From positions 3,472,001 to 3,536,000 of the forward strand of contig OX597828.1 in NCBI GenBank assembly GCA_951406725.2: a stretch of DNA of 64,000 bases. Reading direction: 5' to 3'. The stretch's first letter is position 1. Each line of letters starts with the position of its first letter. This DNA is from Octopus vulgaris (taxonomy: Eukaryota). Below the pieces are notes generated by a model. The model ran no database searches. It was not told the DNA's origin and was given only the letters and a program-made list of their open reading frames with translations. The translations under genes were made by a program, and so were the position numbers. This document shows positions 2,970 to 56,560 of this stretch, piece by piece.

Positions 2970-3714
2970 TAGACGTCGCACAGTATACCATATCGTGAGG
3001 TTGTTGATTGTAGATATAGGGTCTGCCGGGAGTTTTTACTGTTTGTCAAGTCACAACAAGGACCTCAGACAGACAGTACTTTACGCAATATGCGTGTAGT
3101 TCCAAGTAATGCCGACGTTTGCAATACGTCTAGATTTCAGGGTATTTCTAAGGTTTTCAGATGTCTTTCAGTTTGGGTGGTATTGAACCCAATGCTCCGA
3201 TGACAAAAGGGATAGCCTTTATGCCTAATTACTGACGTGGCAGTGCCAGATCAATATATCACCATAAAAGAAAGAGAAAAGCTCGATAAATACGGAGACG
3301 TGAGCGATCTCAATTCTCAGGTCTCCACATTTATGGACCATTTCTCTTTCTTTCATGGTGATAGATTGATCATGCCCTGCCACGTCAGTTATCAGGCACT
3401 CTTGTTTGTCCCCCACCTAAAGGTTACTATATCCGGCCTTCGGCAATTTAGCACCTTGTCTGTCTGGAAGTTAAAGTCCATTACCTTTTCTGGTGTATGT
3501 TGGTACCAAGTACCCGTAACCTCATATCCATACTTACGGCATAAGTATGAGCTGCCTTGGGCTGCCTTCTTGTGTCTACGCTTGTACTCTTTCTGCACAA
3601 GACTTTCACACGCACTAACAATGTGACTCATGCTTTCGACCCTCTTCCCATACATTCTGCAGAGGTCCGTTGCACATGTGTGGTATATATTCTTTTTCAT
3701 TGAGTTGGTTCTCA

Positions 3715-3953: not shown

Positions 3954-4010
<57 letters not shown>
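3716..4010. repeat. Compound (TTA)n/(TTG)n/(CTG)n microsatellite
   Basis: Directly visible. Confidence 0.98.
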
Positions 4011-6097
<2,087 letters not shown>

Positions 6098-14030: not shown

Positions 14031-15110
14031 ATGCGTATCGCCTTCACCTTCGAAACGCAGAGTAGATGAAACCAAGGCGACTGAAGAAGGGGAATTTTCC
14101 TTGTATTACTTGTCCTGTACTCTATTTTTTTGTTGTTTAAGAAAAATGCTCAGTTCCTTGGTTTTGTGTTTATGTTTTCGTTTCTCATTGTGTTCGACGT
14201 TTTTTTTGGTGTCCTGTACCCATATATGCATGTATATATACATGTAGAGGTAGGTATTTACATATATGTATGTATATATGCATATGTTTTATTTATTAAT
14301 TTATTATATGACGGAACACACGCATCCATTTCTAAGTAAGATTGTTCTTGATATTAATAATGATGCGCACTCTTGACATTTTGTCCCCTCCCTTTCTCAG
14401 CCTTCATTCTTTCTGGTTTCCTTTTCTTCTACCTTACTGCCTCTCCCTCTCTCTCATTCTTCATTCTTTCTGGTTTCCTCACAACCATTCCCTGTTTTTC
14501 TCTCCCTTTCTCTCGCTCTTCCTCCTCTCTCCCGTCGTTGACCTGCGACGAGAGGTCTGATACTGTCTTTCTGGCCTGACTTCCTTGAAGTGTGGACGGC
14601 ATTTTCTGTTGCTCCTTCGCCGTTCTCAAAAATAACGTTTGTAATACTTTTTCTCGTTCGGCTTAACAGCCCTTCTTGTCTTGTTATTCTCCTTGTCCTG
14701 TCTTTTACTGTTTATATTTTGTACTGTCGTTACTGTTCTGTTGTTGTTACCATTTTTACCCCTCCGCAAAAAAATCTCAAATTTTATTTAATTTGGTTTT
14801 CGCGGGAAGGAAAGTTTCTATCGAAGATGCGTATCGCCTTCACCTTCGAAACGCAGAGTAAGTGAAACCATGGCGACTGAAGAAGGGGAATTTCCTTGTT
14901 TTATTTATCCAGTACTCTATTTTTTTGTTGTTTAAGAAAAAATGTCCAATTCCTTGGCTTTGTGTTTATGTTTTCGTTTCTCATTGTGTTCGACTTTTGT
15001 TTTTTGTGTCCTGTACGCATATATGCATGTATATATACATGTAGAGGTAGGTACGTACATACATGTATGTATGTATCTATGCATATGTTTTATTTATTAA
15101 TTTATTATAT
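14031..15110 (+). mobile_element. Element with ~280-bp terminal direct repeats (14031-14309 and 14827-15110), probably a Penelope-like partial tandem (pLTR)
   Basis: The direct repeat is visible. It has no TG..CA termini, the interior is pyrimidine-rich, and CGAAAC..GTA and CTGAAGA motifs occur in the repeat. Confidence 0.65.
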
Positions 15111-18034: not shown

Positions 18035-18302
18035 CTCAGTGATAAATTCAAGTTTCATAGTCTGACCTGTTTGCAGATCACTTAAGCACATCATTCGAGA
18101 ATCATTTAAGCTCAGACAACATGTCTACTTCGTGAGAATGCATTTCGTTGCAAGTCTGTCCAATTTCTGCACTATCCGAGCGTGAAACCTGAGGTAGTTT
18201 ACGTATAACTGCTGTATTCATTAGATAATGTATATTTCTCGGTGGACTAAGCAAATTTTTGATGATCATATTTTACCATTGTATATATATATATATTTTT
18301 TT

Positions 18303-18532
18303 TTTTCTTTACTAACCACAAGGGGCTAAACATAGAGGGGACAAACAAGGACAGACAAAAGGATTAAGTCGATTACATCGACCCCAGTGCGAAACTGGTA
18401 CATTATTATCGACCCCGAAAGGATGAAAGGCAAAGTCGACCTCGGCGGAATTTGAACTCAGAACGTAACGACAGACGAAATACCGCTAAGCATATCGCCT
18501 GGCGCGCTAACGTTTCTGCCAGCTCGCCGCCC
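18303..18532 (-). mobile_element. SINE family A, near full length; its 5' part is recopied at 18943-19044 (+)
   Basis: Clear match to 373-593 and 63322-63480. Confidence 0.9.
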
Positions 18533-19044
18533 TATGACCTCCTCTCCCTCCTAGACCTCTCATCATCTCTCTTATACATATATATAAGGTTGTTTCACCT
18601 GAAATGTCGCATTTTTAATTACTTGTTATTTCATTTCAATCATTTAAAAACTCAATTATGTATACCTTTTTCAAAATTCGTACCCACAGACCTTATGAAA
18701 ATGATAACAATCAAACTATGTTGAGTGAGTTTCTCGTACGAGAAACTCACTCAACATAGTTTGATTGTTATCATTTTCATAAGGTCTGTGGGTACGAATT
18801 TTGAAAAAGGTATACATAATTGAGTTTTTAAATGATTGAAATGAAATAACAAGTAATTAAAAATGCGACATTTCAGGTGAAACAACCTTATATATATGTA
18901 TAAGAGAGATGATGAGAGGTCTAGGAGGGAGAGGGAGGTCATAGGGCGGCGAGCTGGCAGAAACGTTAGCGCGCCAGGCGATATGCTTAGCGGTATTTCG
19001 TCTGTCGTTACGTTCTGAGTTCAAATTCCGCCGAGGTCGACTTT
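18432..19044. repeat. Spacerless palindrome, ~306-bp arms
   Basis: Centre GTTTCTCGT|ACGAGAAAC at 18737/18738. Arms differ by one C indel, giving mirrored ORFs 18452+ and 18751-. Confidence 0.98.
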
Positions 19045-20260
19045 TTTACAGGTGTCCAAAAATGGTTGTGCAAGATGTTTGGAGTTTTGATGAAAGTTTT
19101 CGAACTTTTGTTCTAAAATTTTGTTCAACCAAAGCATTTAATCCATCATGCATGATTTTGGCTTACCCTTTGGTTTATTTTCAAGGCTATCATCTCCTGA
19201 ACGAGCTTCGGAACCATCTCTGATGCTAACAAAACCATTACAAAAGGTCCGCTTGATATCCCGTAGACTCTACGGGATATCAAGCGGACCTTTTGTAATG
19301 GTTTTGTTAGCATCAGAGATGGTTCCGAAGCTCGTTCAGGAGATGATAGCCTTGAAAATAAACCAAAGGGTAAGCCAAAATCATGCATGATGGATTAAAT
19401 GCTTTAGTTGAACAAAATTTTAGAACAAAAGTTCGAAAACTTTCATCAAAACTCCAAACATCTTGCACAACCATTTTTGGACACCTGTAAAAAATTTGGA
19501 AAAGTCAAGAAAACAGATAGGTTTGTTCCACATCAACTGAACGAGATTTAAAAAAACAGACACCTCGAAATGTGCTCCTTATTGCTTTCTCGACTGGAAA
19601 AAGACCACTTTTGATTAAAATCATGACTTGTGATGAGGAATAGATAGACTTTGACAACAACAGGAGAACAGGACAGCGATTTGATGCAGGAGAGTCACCT
19701 AGACACTACCCAAACCCACCATTGCATTCTAAAAAGTTAGTGGTCAGTGAATGGTGGTCTGCGAAGGGAGTAATTCATTATTCATTTTTGCAATAAGGAA
19801 AAACAGTAACAGCAACATCGTATTGCCAGGAAATTGATTGCATGCATGAAAATTCGAAGAAGAAACCCAGACTAGTGAGTAGGGATGGCCTAATTTTGCT
19901 CTACGACAATGCACGTCCTCACACTCCTCAAGCTACGGTCCAAAAGTTGCAAACCTGACTTATGAGATTTTGCAACATCCTCCCTATTCCCCTCATATCT
20001 CTCCTACTGATCATCCCTTATTTAAGCATTTTGAGCTTTTCATAAGCAATAAAACATTCTTAAATAGAGAAGAGGTAATTGAAGCATTCGGACAATATAT
20101 CACAGCAATTTTTTAAAAGATGGGATATATAATATAGAGAAACGTTGGGTAAACGTCATAAATGAACATGGATCATTCTTTGATTAAATAAATCAGTTCT
20201 CTAACACTTCTGAAACATTTCATTGTTACCCTTCAAATACGACATTCCGTACGAAACAAC

Positions 20261-20264
<4 letters not shown>
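18585..20264 (+). mobile_element. mariner (D,D34D) transposon fossil, rearranged
   Basis: TA-flanked TIRs TAAGGTTGTTTCACCTGAAATGTCGCATTT and AAATACGACATTCCGTACGAAACAACCTAA. Broken transposase 19269-20185 reads GKVKK..FVPHQL, IMTCDE, LLYDNARPH and HPPYSPHISPTD. Confidence 0.92.
19042..19494. repeat. Palindrome, 226-bp arms with 1-nt centre
   Basis: Centre CCCGTAGA-C-TCTACGGG at 19268; one mismatch seen; mirrored ORFs 19146- and 19148+. Confidence 0.98.
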
Positions 20265-28757: not shown

Positions 28758-29208
28758 TATATGTTTTTATCTTATATTTAATTTTTTCTATAGGATGTAA
28801 TTTTTTTCGATATGGTATAATTCAATTTTTTCATTGTTGAATTGGTAAAAGGTGTTTTTTTTCTAATATATATATATATGTATATATATTATATTTTGTG
28901 AAATTTGATTTAGTATTACTATATTGAATTTTTCCCTGTAGGTTTGGAATGATATTTCCTAATATTATTATATATATATATAGTGAGAGAGAGATAAAGA
29001 GAGAGAGACACTATATGTTTTTCGGTAGGCGTGACGAGGAATTGGTAAATCAATCAATTGAAAGTACATAAGCTCACGTGTGCAAACCAGCATTATCAAT
29101 CGGTAGGAGTAAACACTGTTACCCGCTTGGATATTATATCTCCGTCAACTAAAAAAAAAAGATTTCGAAAATCTTGGAAACTTGACTATATACACACACA
29201 CATATATA

Positions 29209-41663: not shown

Positions 41664-41809
<146 letters not shown>

Positions 41810-42021
41810 CAATAATAAATCTCTGAACGAGGTATAAACAGTAACTGCACGACAATGTAAGGTATACTAGCCATCTCAATATGGCTAACCACCAAGGGTG
41901 GGTGTTACTGTAGCTTGTAGCCCCAGGAGAACATCTCCTCCAGCTGGCTTTAAGCACACTTTCTGTGCTCTAAGGTATTTGCAAAGGGAGGTCACCCTTC
42001 CCTCGTCAACCTAAATGATAC

Positions 42022-42064
42022 GTACGGACTGCAGTTTCTAGGTATTGACCTGTCATTAGCGTAC
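42022..42064 (-). ncRNA. Second hammerhead copy with mutated core (CTAATGA), probably inactive
   Basis: Reverse complement is GTACG-CTAATGA-CAGGTCAATACCTA-GAAAC-TGCA-GTC-CGTAC. Confidence 0.6.
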
Positions 42065-42284
42065 GACAATCACCGGTTTTCGATGATAAAGTGTTCCAAT
42101 GCAAATCCTTATATATCGTTTTTCCAGTAACGATTCGTCACTGATCTCGATAAACTGCATGCAAGCAATAATAAATCTCTGAACGAGGTATAAACAGTAA
42201 CTGCACGACAATGTGAGGTATACTTGCCATCTCTTGCCAAGGATTTGCATTGGAAAACTTTTTCATTGAAAACCGGTGATTGTC

Positions 42285-42327
42285 GTACGCTGATGACAGG
42301 TCAAAACCTAGAAACTGCAGTCCGTGC
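42285..42327 (+). ncRNA. Minimal type I hammerhead ribozyme motif
   Basis: GTACG-CTGATGA-C-AGG-TCAAAA-CCT-A-GAAAC-TGCA-GTC-CGTGC: stem I GTACG/CGTGC, stem II AGG/CCT, palindromic stem III ACTGCAGT, GUC cleavage triplet. Confidence 0.75.
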
Positions 42328-42493
42328 GTATCACTTAGGTTGACGAGGGAAGGGTGACCTCCCTTTGCAAATACCATAAGGGCACAGAAAGTGTGCCTAA
42401 AGCCAGCTGGAGGAGATGTTCTCCTGGGGCTACAGGCTACAGTAACACCCACCCTTAGTGGTTAGCCATATTGAGATGGCAAGTATACCTCAC

Positions 42494-42536
<43 letters not shown>

Positions 42537-46588: not shown

Positions 46589-46664
46589 ATAATAATATTA
46601 GGGAGTAAATCCAAACTTACAGGGAAAAATTAGATTTAGGATTAAATCTAATTTTATAGTATAA

Positions 46665-46972
46665 ATATATATTATATTGAATTAGAGATAAAACCACTAT
46701 TAGGCAAATCAAACAGTGAAAATCATAAACCAATACATAGAAATAAAATTAATTAAAAAAATATATAAAAAATATAAAATATATATAAAATTCCAAATTA
46801 AAATTAAAATTAAAATTAAAAATTAAAATTAAAATTTAATTTGGAATCTTATATATATTTTATATTTTTTATATATATTTTTATTTAATTTTATTTCTAT
46901 GTATTGGCTTACGATTTTCACTGTTTGATTTGCCTAATAGTGGTTTTATCTCTAATTTAATATAATATATAT
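46665..46972. repeat. AT-rich inverted repeat, ~138-bp arms around an (AAAATT)n spacer
   Basis: ATTAGAGATAAAACCACTATTAGGCAAATCAAACAGTGAAAATC versus GATTTTCACTGTTTGATTTGCCTAATAGTGGTTTTATCTCTAAT. The left flank is related to 28895-28970 (-). Confidence 0.9.
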
Positions 46973-47099
46973 ATATATCTGAGCCATCATCAGACTGCCG
47001 AAACGTCGAAGTTACTGTCAATAGCATTCTTATATGGTAATAATAAATTTGTAGTCTACAAAAGTATGGAGCAACCCATCGGATTAATGTAATGGTTAA

Positions 47100-49559: not shown

Positions 49560-50219
49560 AGCAAGGAGAAATTGTAAAAATGCAGAATGCTCAAACGAAA
49601 GAAAATTTTAATGAAATGAGAAATTGATAAAATATATAAATATATATTTATTCAACCGGTTTCCGTCATTGTATGACTTGTCAAGAATATTTAGGTTTAA
49701 AAAGTTTTTTTAAAAATGAGAAAGGGGAAAAAAGAAAATTGCATTGTTTTTTGCAAAAGAATAATAGTAAAAATGTACAAAAATTAAAAAATAAGTACTC
49801 CGATACATTGTGAGTTCGTTGTGTATCTTGAGCTTAATGATTGTTCACGAAAAAATTACCTTGAGGTATTAGGATCCAATGGGATTAAGAGCATGTGTTG
49901 TTTGGTTTAATTGAGGATGTTGGCAAAACAGGAAGTAGTAGTAATTACTACTACTTCGAACGAACTCACAATGTATCGGAGTACTTATTTTTTAATTTTT
50001 GTACATTTTTACTATTATTCTTTTGCAAAAAACAATGCAATTTTCTTTTTTCCCCTTTCTAATTTAAAAAAAACAACTTTTTAAACCTAAATATTCTTGA
50101 CAAGTCATACAATGACGAACCGGTTGAATAAATATATATTTATATATTTTATCAATTTCTCATTTCATTAAAATTTTCTTTCGTTTGAGCATTCTGCATT
50201 TTTATAATTTTTCCTTGCT
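49560..50219. mobile_element. Penelope-like inverted-repeat element, ~261-bp arms (49560-49820, 49959-50219)
   Basis: Near-identical inverted arms, each with a hammerhead-like motif followed by AATAAA; TA-rich flanks. Confidence 0.8.
50092..50130 (+). ncRNA. Minimal hammerhead-like motif, U3-A8 variant (mirror copy at 49649-49689, minus strand)
   Basis: TATTC-TTGACAA-GTCA-TACAA-TGAC-GAAC-CG-GTT-GAATA; the mirror copy has GGAAAC in place of GAAC. Confidence 0.6.
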
Positions 50220-52449: not shown

Positions 52450-53332
52450 TGTAGTATGATCGATCAGTAGCTGACCTGTTGCCATAGTAACAAAGCTAAA
52501 GCACACACAGTGACGACTCTTGGCACAGATTGACCTTGAACTCTACTGCGCATGTGCGCTAAGTTTTAACGTTCTAGCTTACTTTCGCTATTTACGGCAC
52601 TGCTTGGAAATAACGTGTGTAATATGTGATCATCGCATTGATCATGACGGAGAAAATTGAAAAGAGAATTTGCATCACATTTTGCCAAATGCTTGGTGAT
52701 ACCTGTTCAGAGGCCTACACAAAGTTTTCAAAATGTTTTCATCGTTCTTGACACAATGAAGGAGATCTTGTGCAAAAGAAGTCCGAGTGTCGTTTTGGCC
52801 AACTGAAAGCAGTTTTGGCACAAACTAGGCAGACACGCGTCTCATACCCAAATCTTCAGCGATCATGAACTGAATTGGACCGTAATTAATCTGCACATCC
52901 TCTTATAACTCACAGATGGTAATTCGACGAATTACCATCTCAGTTGCACGCACATCTGCGATGTTTTTTCTCAGTTTTGCTGGCTGCAGGTCTCCCAGAA
53001 CGTTCGTCAATATCGACAATTTTTCGGCTGCCTTGGAAGCGTCTGAACCACTTGTACACCTGTGTACGACTCATACACTCTTCTCCATACACTTTTTGTA
53101 ACTTTACGTAGGCCTCTGAGCAGTTATCGCCATGACAACTTTTCTGTCATGGTCAATGCGACGATTACACGTTACACACCTTCCTTCCAAGTCCTGCTGT
53201 AAACAGCGGAAGTGAGCTAGAACGTTAAAACATAGTGGGCATGTATAACAGAGGTCAAGGTTAATCTGTGCCAAGCGGCATTACTCTGCGGGCTTTAGCT
53301 TCATTGCTATGGCAATAGTTCATATACTTATT
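52450..53332 (-). mobile_element. Non-autonomous mariner derivative with two 5' ends (long inverted arms)
   Basis: 52450-52730 is an inverted, diverged copy of 53095-53332. The minus strand encodes a transposase N-terminus (LQKVYGEECMSRTQVYKWFRRF..DERSGRP..RRITI..DLGMRRVSA*FVPKLL). Confidence 0.85.
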
Positions 53333-56339: not shown

Positions 56340-56560
56340 TCATGTGATAGGTGACTGACCAGGTTATCAGATGTTGTGGCCAGTGATGTATACATCACTG
56401 GCCACAACACTTCTTTGCATTACTTTAGCCTTCAAATGACGCCACCCAGCTGGCTAGGCGAGGGAGCCAACATTCCAACCTGATCGAAAAGGGGACTTCA
56501 GCAACATGGAATAAAGTGTTTTGCTCAAAAACAATGCACCAAATCTAAATCTAAATTTTA
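56340..56560 (-). mobile_element. Probable SINE fragment containing a perfect 38-bp palindrome
   Basis: CAGCAACATGGAATAAAGTGTTTTGCTCAAAAACAATGCACC resembles family C (11630-11680); palindrome at 56372-56409. Confidence 0.5.

What the first reader, a model, noticed from the sequence alone, without database searches (positions are those of the whole stretch)
18432..19494. Back-to-back giant palindromes (X X' Y' Y) splitting a mariner
Seen: a spacerless 613-bp palindrome (one indel) abuts a 453-bp palindrome (one mismatch, 1-nt centre), sharing TTT at 19042-19044. X is SINE plus the mariner 5' end and Y is the continuing transposase, with roughly 15 N-terminal codons apparently missing between them. 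The arms are almost identical although the mariner is heavily decayed, so the event is very recent. Inference: a double-strand break whose two ends each folded back or were hairpin-capped, extended by 200-300 bp and joined by microhomology, like giant P-nucleotides. A tandem duplication followed by inversion, or an assembly artefact, would give the same layout. Such palindromes are normally unstable.
Basis: partly seen in the sequence, partly recalled or inferred. Interest (0 to 1): 0.78.

Follow-up and report, generated by a model that had tools for sequence, protein, structure and literature searches.

The report
Double fold-back scar in octopus mariner
A dead mariner transposon in what is likely an octopus genome is split by two back-to-back mirror-image duplications (613 and 453 bases), likely the scar of a DNA break whose two ends each folded back and copied themselves before rejoining, which left a palindromic mini-transposon shape behind; a sequencing artefact is not excluded.

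Summary
The X X' Y' Y layout is confirmed: 613-bp spacerless and 453-bp 1-nt-centre palindromes, 2 differences in 532 bp of arm, sharing TTT. It splits a decayed mariner; its closest named relatives are Octopus proteins. About 34 nt (11 codons, not 15) lie between the arms in the family frame. The left tip sits on a likely natural imperfect palindrome (about top 2% of a null); the right tip shows none. No target-site duplication. Best reading (0.55): a double-strand break, both resected 3' ends folded back, copied 306 and 226 nt, and joined at microhomology. One-sided fold-back insertions are documented in yeast; two-sided events in mouse germline (1 of 12) and cancers (23 reciprocal foldbacks). 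By-product: 18585-18890 is a perfect 306-bp palindrome bounded by two mariner ends and TA, i.e. a fold-back MITE shape. Read support is undecided: my one lay was swamped by SINE copies and listed no record across any junction or the unrearranged allele; artefact about 0.19. The scan noted single palindromic scars in two other genomes, not this double form.

The parts
18365..18534 (.). SINE-like high-copy repeat; X begins inside it at 18432 (it probably starts somewhat left of 18365)
   Evidence: 10 other matches of 71-88% identity in the window; summed contig depth 5-8 x 10^7 in run X1 against 65 for unique flank. The label SINE is recalled, not tested.
18432..18737 (+). Arm X: SINE part, short spacer, mariner 5' end up to the first base of the Tyr codon of the family's V-I-F-L-Y-E motif
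18585..18616 (+). Mariner 5' terminal inverted repeat, preceded by TA repeats
   Evidence: 23 of 32 identical to the 3' TIR; matches the ends of related loci L002 and L003 at 84-88%
18585..18890 (.). By-product: perfect 306-bp palindrome bounded by two identical mariner 5' ends, TATATA on each side (fold-back MITE shape)
   Evidence: equals its own reverse complement
18727..18748 (.). Left tip (centre 18737|18738, no spacer); reads V-S-F-S-Y-E-K-L-T-Q-H-S in frame against family V-I-F-L-Y-E-Y-K-L-G-H-S
   Evidence: anchored score 5.0-5.5 against 3 family proteins, null 40 of 1935 at 5 or more
18738..19044 (-). Arm X' (inverted copy of X, one extra base)
19042..19044 (.). Middle junction X'|Y', 3-bp microhomology TTT; a 6-bp match to the X start lies 9 nt further along the right flank (19501-19506)
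   Evidence: 6-bp match within 15 nt in 269 of 20000 random pairs; window chosen after seeing it
19042..19267 (-). Arm Y' (inverted copy of Y, one mismatch)
19268..19268 (.). Right tip, single unpaired C
19269..19494 (+). Arm Y: transposase from family residue 24 to about 105
   Evidence: tblastn with P0002
19495..20264 (+). Rest of the decayed transposase (stops, frameshifts) and 3' TIR (20233-20264), followed by TA repeats

Best explanation
The assembly shows two abutting near-perfect palindromes inside a decayed mariner, and they are likely the inherited scar of one double-strand break repaired by fold-back (snap-back) synthesis at both ends. Inferred steps: (1) a break fell in the ~34-nt stretch between the present tips (family codons 13-24); (2) both ends were resected by roughly 200-300 nt; (3) each 3' tail folded on itself, the left one at a pre-existing imperfect palindrome, was trimmed and extended along its own strand for 306 and 226 nt, with stem mismatches corrected towards the template arm; (4) the new 3' ends were unwound and joined at TTT/AAA, perhaps first held by the 6-bp match 9 nt away, and filled in; (5) two mutations have since accrued between arms. 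Shown: the layout, the arm differences, the microhomology, the position of both tips in the transposase frame. The structure has no function of its own; as a by-product it makes a 306-bp palindromic mini-mariner with two ends and TA flanks.
For: Geometry: three junctions, both turn-points within about 34 ancestral nt, return to the original strand, both flanks continuous. The inserted piece X'Y' is not collinear with either strand of the ancestral order, so a flipped haplotype or a single-turn read cannot give it (sequence logic). Left tip on a likely natural imperfect palindrome: score 5.0-5.5 with 3 of 3 family proteins scored, against 40 and 22 of 1935 null centres at 5 and 5.5 or more. Middle join has 3-bp microhomology and a 6-bp match nearby, 269 of 20000 by chance. 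Arms differ at 2 of 532 positions; chance of two or more is 0.005 at a consensus error of 1e-4. Precedent: yeast fold-back insertions of 10 to over 150 bp from an imperfect 10-bp inverted repeat, joined with 0-5 bp microhomology (PMC11724301, section 15); imperfect 11-bp repeats corrected to perfect palindromes (PMC10622511, passages); mouse Atm-null germline deletions with inverted insertions of 16-709 bp, 1 of 12 with an insertion from each side (10.1101/2020.06.23.168138, section 13). Fold-back reads were about 0.55-0.6% of nanopore genomic reads and virtually absent from HiFi in one survey (PMC12870357, passages). The flanks are real DNA of this species: run X1 contigs match four unique pieces (236, 104, 99, 102 nt) without a difference.
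Against: No listed read or contig crosses 18737, 19043 or 19268 in any of 4 runs laid, and none shows the unrearranged allele; the tables were truncated by SINE matches (877 joints and 472948 pieces not shown), so this is undecided, not negative. The right tip shows no natural palindrome by the same test (score 1.5; 868 of 1935 null centres reach it), and the minimal tip stems do not fold on their own. The left-tip test rests on back-translated family proteins, not on the ancestral DNA. At a consensus error of 1e-3 two arm differences have probability 0.29, so they do not exclude an artefact in a poorly polished assembly. The yeast events are mostly 5-34 bp, one-sided and keep a loop; spacerless two-sided arms of 200-300 bp were not found in the passages read. 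Long spacerless palindromes are expected to be unstable (general knowledge).
Confidence: 0.55

Rival explanations
1. Library or assembly artefact: a doubly folded chimeric molecule (amplification or repair step) or a misassembly entered the consensus.
For: No junction-spanning record was listed. Amplification chimeras also turn at short inverted repeats and join at microhomology (general knowledge). Fold-back reads exist in nanopore data and can tangle assembly graphs (PMC12870357, passages). Sequencing method of this assembly is unknown.
Against: Needs three junctions in one molecule that outvotes normal reads; ordinary fold-back reads turn once. Arms differ at 2 of 532 positions including a substitution. 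In the bin over the right tip (19224-19297) contig depth is 85, 13 and 121 in X1, X2, X4 against about 65, 14 and 41 in the unique left flank; a single-copy Y laid once could give about 0.65 of flank depth, but other mariner copies and the tool's handling of two-place matches can explain this, so it is a weak hint only.
Confidence: 0.19
2. Breakage-replication/fusion: the unrepaired break was replicated, sister ends fused on each side (reciprocal foldbacks), and the two palindromic chromatids broke again 306 and 226 nt from their tips and rejoined.
For: 23 reciprocal foldbacks at ancestral breaks among 2,588 cancer genomes (PMC12807874, passages). Needs no stable hairpin, which suits the right tip.
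Against: Needs two further breaks very near the tips and survival of a dicentric and an acentric product in the germline. Sister-end fusion usually leaves a spacer equal to the stagger of the two ends; here the spacers are 0 and 1 nt.
Confidence: 0.1
3. Serial template switching at a stalled fork or at two converging forks (FoSTeS/MMBIR or leading-to-lagging switches): three switches, X to X', X' to Y', Y' to Y.
For: All three junctions carry short homology; switching between strands has no loop-size limit, which suits a 1-nt centre; arm lengths are near Okazaki-fragment size (general knowledge). Short perfected palindromes elsewhere in the window (49932-49957, 52914-52940) suggest template switching happens in this genome.
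Against: A single fork does not explain why the last switch lands about 34 nt beyond the first, nor the loss of the sequence between them.
Confidence: 0.08
4. Tandem duplication of X-gap-Y (junction at AAA) followed by inversion of the middle and loss of the gap twice.
For: The middle junction is the reverse complement of a tandem-duplication junction with 3-bp microhomology. A palindromic site present in both copies could act as an inverted repeat.
Against: Inversion at one palindromic site would give the same centre at both tips; the two centres differ, so a third symmetric step is needed.
Confidence: 0.05
5. Excision footprint of a hairpin-forming transposase (hAT or Transib type) with very long P-nucleotides on both flanks.
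For: Such enzymes seal both flanks as hairpins; a 1-nt centre fits hAT chemistry; inverted duplications of about 200 bp after Tam3 excision are recalled from memory (not retrieved by search).
Against: No shared direct repeat of 5-8 bp between the X end and the Y start, only one 4-mer that the family frame explains; about 34 nt separate the arms instead of a duplicated target; one tip is even and one odd.
Confidence: 0.03

Closest known systems
Local fold-back inverted insertions at HO-induced breaks in yeast (PMC11724301; passages and section 15 read)
   Same: Inverted copy of break-adjacent DNA, primed at an imperfect inverted repeat, other end joined with 0-5 bp microhomology.
   Different: One-sided, mostly 5-34 bp (up to over 150), keeps a 41-nt loop; here two-sided, 306 and 226 bp, spacers 0 and 1 nt, in an animal genome assembly.
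Deletions with local inverted insertions at mouse meiotic hotspots (bioRxiv 10.1101/2020.06.23.168138; passages and section 13 read; supplements closed)
   Same: Germline; inserts of 16-709 bp in opposite orientation; 1 of 12 had an inverted insertion from each side; fold-back is one of two models offered.
   Different: Atm-null mice, kb-scale deletions between two hotspots; whether the two-sided case forms spacerless palindromes would be in figures and tables I could not see.
Break-induced inverted duplications in sae2/mre11 yeast (PMC10622511; passages read)
   Same: Fold-back at an imperfect 11-bp repeat near a break, with mismatches corrected to a perfect palindrome.
   Different: Large one-sided chromosome rearrangements resolved by a second recombination event, not a local two-sided join.
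Reciprocal foldbacks from breakage-replication/fusion (PMC12807874; passages read)
   Same: Fold-back junctions on both sides of one ancestral break.
   Different: Somatic cancer events from fusion of replicated sister ends, usually with staggered breakpoints and larger segments.
Fold-back MITEs of the Tc1/mariner group (PMC3814204; passages read)
   Same: 18585-18890 is wholly palindromic with mariner ends and TA flanks; the paper states that such long-TIR MITEs cannot be explained by simple internal deletion.
   Different: Single copy in the window, still embedded in its parent element; no evidence that it has moved.

Membership tests
Fold-back inverted duplication at a double-strand break | Inverted copy of the DNA next to the break, abutting its template | tested here: met
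   both sides
Fold-back inverted duplication at a double-strand break | Pre-existing short inverted repeat at the turn-point | tested here: inconclusive
   left tip about top 1-2% of null, right tip at the null median; protein-based proxy for the ancestral DNA
Fold-back inverted duplication at a double-strand break | Short (0-5 bp) microhomology at the distal join | tested here: met
   3 bp
Fold-back inverted duplication at a double-strand break | Small loss of sequence at the break | tested here: met
   about 34 nt between arms by family frame, of which a few may be natural tip sequence
Fold-back inverted duplication at a double-strand break | Present in native DNA (junction-spanning reads) | tested here: inconclusive
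   tables swamped and truncated
hAT/Transib excision footprint with P-nucleotides | Remnant of a 5-8 bp target-site duplication at both tips | tested here: not met
Tc1/mariner transposon (host element) | Mariner-type transposase, TIRs about 30 bp, TA flanks | tested here: met
Fold-back MITE | Short, non-coding, palindromic, transposon ends and TA target at both sides | tested here: met
   18585-18890
Fold-back MITE | Dispersed copies showing that it has transposed | tested here: inconclusive
   no other copy in the 64-kb window; whole genome not held
Penelope-like inverted pseudo-LTR insertion | Arms made of element sequence foreign to the flanks | tested here: not met
   arms are local sequence continuous with both flanks
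Long-read fold-back artefact | One turn, read does not resume the forward strand | tested here: not met
   two turns and a jump, forward strand resumes; multi-turn amplification chimeras are not excluded

The most novel reading that the evidence does not exclude
Two-ended fold-back repair is a recurrent germline mutation class in octopus, leaves X X' Y' Y scars whose arm lengths record short-range resection tracts, and when it strikes near a transposon end it creates fully palindromic MITEs in one step; this locus would be a fold-back MITE caught at birth, and the long-armed mariner at 52463-53331 an older product.
Probability: 0.12. Interest if true: 0.72.

Novelty: new member of a known kind. 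Interest (0 to 1): 0.38.

Why it matters
If real, it is a clean, naturally inherited example of a repair outcome known mainly from mutant yeast, Atm-null mouse germline and tumours, in the rare two-sided and spacerless form, and it shows that 450-600 bp near-perfect palindromes can persist long enough to gain mutations. It also gives a concrete one-step route to wholly palindromic MITEs, whose origin by simple deletion has been questioned (PMC3814204). As a single locus in junk DNA with undecided read support it changes nothing yet; its value depends on a genome-wide count.

Tried and rejected
Whole-genome scan for more such structures: no genome held. Read test: 4 of 24 listed runs laid (X1, X2, X4 contigs; X21 raw reads, about 3 in 100 read, 12 reads laid); SINE copies swamped the joint and piece tables; no verdict. 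Protein search with a 53-residue piece found nothing. Metagenome loci L001-L029 are only 23-62% identical in protein and about 65-72% in DNA over the 3' part, too distant to give the ancestral DNA at the tips; 6 of 29 loci served as the null. P0154 was dropped from the tip test because the motif pattern did not match it and the first script stopped there. Target-site duplication test negative. Natural palindrome at the right tip not supported. Rfam scan of the window: 0 matches at gathering score. My hammerhead-core pattern hit none of the other inverted repeats (2 hits elsewhere, 0-1 per shuffle), so their Penelope-like label is untested. A splice-site (circular RNA) origin of the middle junction was rejected by eye: no GT/AG at the join. 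The ~34-nt gap resembles the recalled size of Spo11 double cuts; not testable here and not used as evidence. A promoter scan on 21 bases was irrelevant. Literature searches without a direct match: 0 papers; 6, none on this topic by title; 4, none on Tam3 footprints by title; 2; 0.

Full report
Observation. The layout is as described. The repeat finder gives arms 19042-19267/19269-19494 (226 nt, 1 nt apart), 18541-18737/18738-18934 and 18432-18542/18934-19044. Global alignment shows one 1-nt indel between X (306 nt) and X' (307 nt) and one mismatch (19130/19406) between Y' and Y. The longest perfect arm is 197 nt against at most 10 nt in 100 base shuffles of the 3-kb region. The window has no N and is rich in microsatellites.

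Host sequence. X starts inside a very high-copy SINE-like repeat (10 other matches in the window; summed depth up to 8 x 10^7 against 65 for unique DNA) and runs into a mariner whose ends are 18585 and 20264, TA-flanked, 23 of 32 TIR positions identical. The transposase has many stops and frameshifts; a piece read with X at two stops hits Pfam Transposase_1 and an Octopus sinensis SETMAR-like protein at 66%; 5 of the 18 proteins found with that protein's N-terminus carry Octopus names. I infer an octopus genome. The family N-terminus is M-L-T-T-E-Q-Y-R-V-I-F-L-Y-E-Y-K-L-G/D-H-S-A-T-E-A-L-R-N-I. tblastn places the start of Y at residue 24, and the end of X reads V-S-F-S-Y in frame, which I align by eye to V-I-F-L-Y, residues 9-13. 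So about 34 nt lie between the arms; a ~17-nt loss after the start codon and a ~10-nt loss at about 19317 are in both arms and are older.

Tips and junction. Read in frame through the left tip, the window gives Y-E-K-L-T-Q-H-S against family Y-E-Y-K-L-G-H-S: the start of X' resembles the sequence that naturally followed X, as expected if the turn happened at a natural imperfect palindrome. Scored against degenerate back-translations of 3 family proteins this gives 5.0-5.5; 40 of 1935 null centres in six related genes reach 5 and 22 reach 5.5; the homologous centre in those six genes scores 1.0-4.0 (P0154 dropped). The right tip scores 1.5, reached by 868 of 1935, so it has no such support, and neither minimal tip stem folds alone. 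The middle junction shares TTT; a 6-bp match to the X start lies 9 nt away in the right flank, seen in 269 of 20000 random pairs with a window chosen afterwards. No 5-8 bp direct repeat is shared by the X end and Y start, against a hairpin-transposase footprint.

Is it real? No whole genome is held. Of 24 runs listed I laid four on 18040-20255. Contigs of X1 match four unique flank pieces without a difference and X2 one; X4 (organism B) differs at 2 of 236, so the locus itself is genuine. The junction question stayed open: about 150,000-290,000 SINE-derived records per contig run filled the tables, 877 joints and 472,948 pieces were not shown, and none of those shown crosses a junction or bridges X to Y. 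The raw run gave 12 reads, all only partly fitting. Depth in the bin over the right tip (85, 13, 121) is at or above unique depth (65, 14, 41), more than a single-copy Y laid once should give, but other mariner copies and two-place matches can explain it. Indirect arguments favour a real locus: three junctions with return to the forward strand; an insert order (X' then Y') that no flipped haplotype contains; two arm differences (probability 0.005 at error 1e-4 but 0.29 at 1e-3); and low rates of fold-back reads in genomic libraries (PMC12870357, passages). I put artefact at about 0.19.

Mechanism. The simplest account of two turn-points 34 nt apart with the interval lost is one break with fold-back synthesis at both resected 3' ends, then joining of the unwound new ends at microhomology. 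All steps are inferred; each has precedent: one-sided fold-back insertions in yeast (PMC11724301, passages and section 15), correction of imperfect repeats to perfect palindromes (PMC10622511, passages), and in Atm-null mouse germline 12 deletions with local inverted insertions of 16-709 bp, one with an insertion from each side (10.1101/2020.06.23.168138, passages and section 13; its supplements are closed and may show how close that case is). Snap-back end joining in Drosophila (PMC5728401, PMC2943611) was seen as search listings only. Arm lengths of 306 and 226 nt would match short-range resection tracts (recalled sizes). Rivals are replicated-end fusion (23 reciprocal foldbacks in cancers, PMC12807874, passages), serial template switching, tandem duplication plus inversion, and a transposase footprint. 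Arms differ by 0.4%, so the event is young relative to the mariner's decay but probably not new-born, unless the differences are errors or came from the other homolog.

By-product. Because X contains the 5' end of the mariner, 18585-18890 is a perfect 306-bp palindrome with two identical transposon ends and TATATA outside each. This is the shape of a fold-back MITE, a class whose origin is said not to follow from simple internal deletion (PMC3814204, passages). There is no other copy in the window and no evidence of movement. An older mariner at 52463-53331 also has its 5' part at both ends in opposite orientation (78% arms).

Other inverted repeats in the window (41854-42496, 46660-46977, 49560-50219, 3222-3398) do not have the X X' Y' Y form. 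Three lie beside TA repeats, and one combines a direct and an inverted copy, as described for Penelope-like insertions (PMC8557442, passages), but my motif scan and Rfam did not confirm this. They show that this genome keeps 150-260 bp inverted repeats until they are 4-20% diverged.

Novelty and verdict. A new member of a known kind, in an uncommon two-sided spacerless form. Searches for this form or for cephalopod cases found no direct description, within a library limited to open papers. The scan's earlier notes hold two single palindromes in other genomes and nothing on this genome or sequence. Interest 0.38; the bold case (a recurrent repair class that breeds palindromic MITEs) has probability about 0.12 and would deserve about 0.72.

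Noticed in passing
window 52463-53331: A second, unrelated mariner whose 5' part stands at both ends in opposite orientation (194-bp arms, 78%); the minus strand reads as a transposase N-terminus, and a 27-bp perfected palindrome sits inside it at 52914-52940. Possibly an older long-TIR or fold-back derivative.
   Followed up: partly
window 41807-42496: 258-bp inverted repeat (94%) plus a 71-bp direct copy, between TA/TATC microsatellites; looks like a Penelope-like partial tandem with inverted copy; not confirmed by motif scan or Rfam.
   Followed up: partly
window 49560-50219: 263-bp inverted repeat (96.6%) with a 138-bp spacer that ends in a perfect 26-bp palindrome (49932-49957) abutting the second arm. 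Could be Penelope-like or a one-sided fold-back with a template jump.
   Followed up: partly
window 46660-46977: 318-bp AT-rich palindrome (92%) with an (ATTAAA)n centre; the left part matches 28758-28982 at 71%.
   Followed up: no
window 14031-14309 and 14827-15110: 285-bp direct repeat (91.6%) ending in a TA microsatellite; resembles a pseudo-LTR pair (recalled).
   Followed up: no
window 3222-3398 and about 4000-5875: 177-bp palindrome (80%) next to open frames that read like a non-LTR reverse transcriptase and C-terminal endonuclease region (label from recall, not scanned).
   Followed up: no
window 56372-56409: 38-bp palindrome with 15-bp perfect outer arms.
   Followed up: no
window 19296-19369: Depth in raw run X21 suggests one short read pair matching about 73 nt of Y across the ~10-nt deletion and then running on unlike; could be a short insert, a close paralogue or a different allele (inferred from bin depths).
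   Followed up: no
window 18725-18733: The two codons of X that differ from the family motif (Ile to Ser, Leu to Ser) both improve pairing with the sequence expected to follow the tip, as if this copy was already a better palindrome than its family or had an earlier template-switch correction (inferred).
   Followed up: partly
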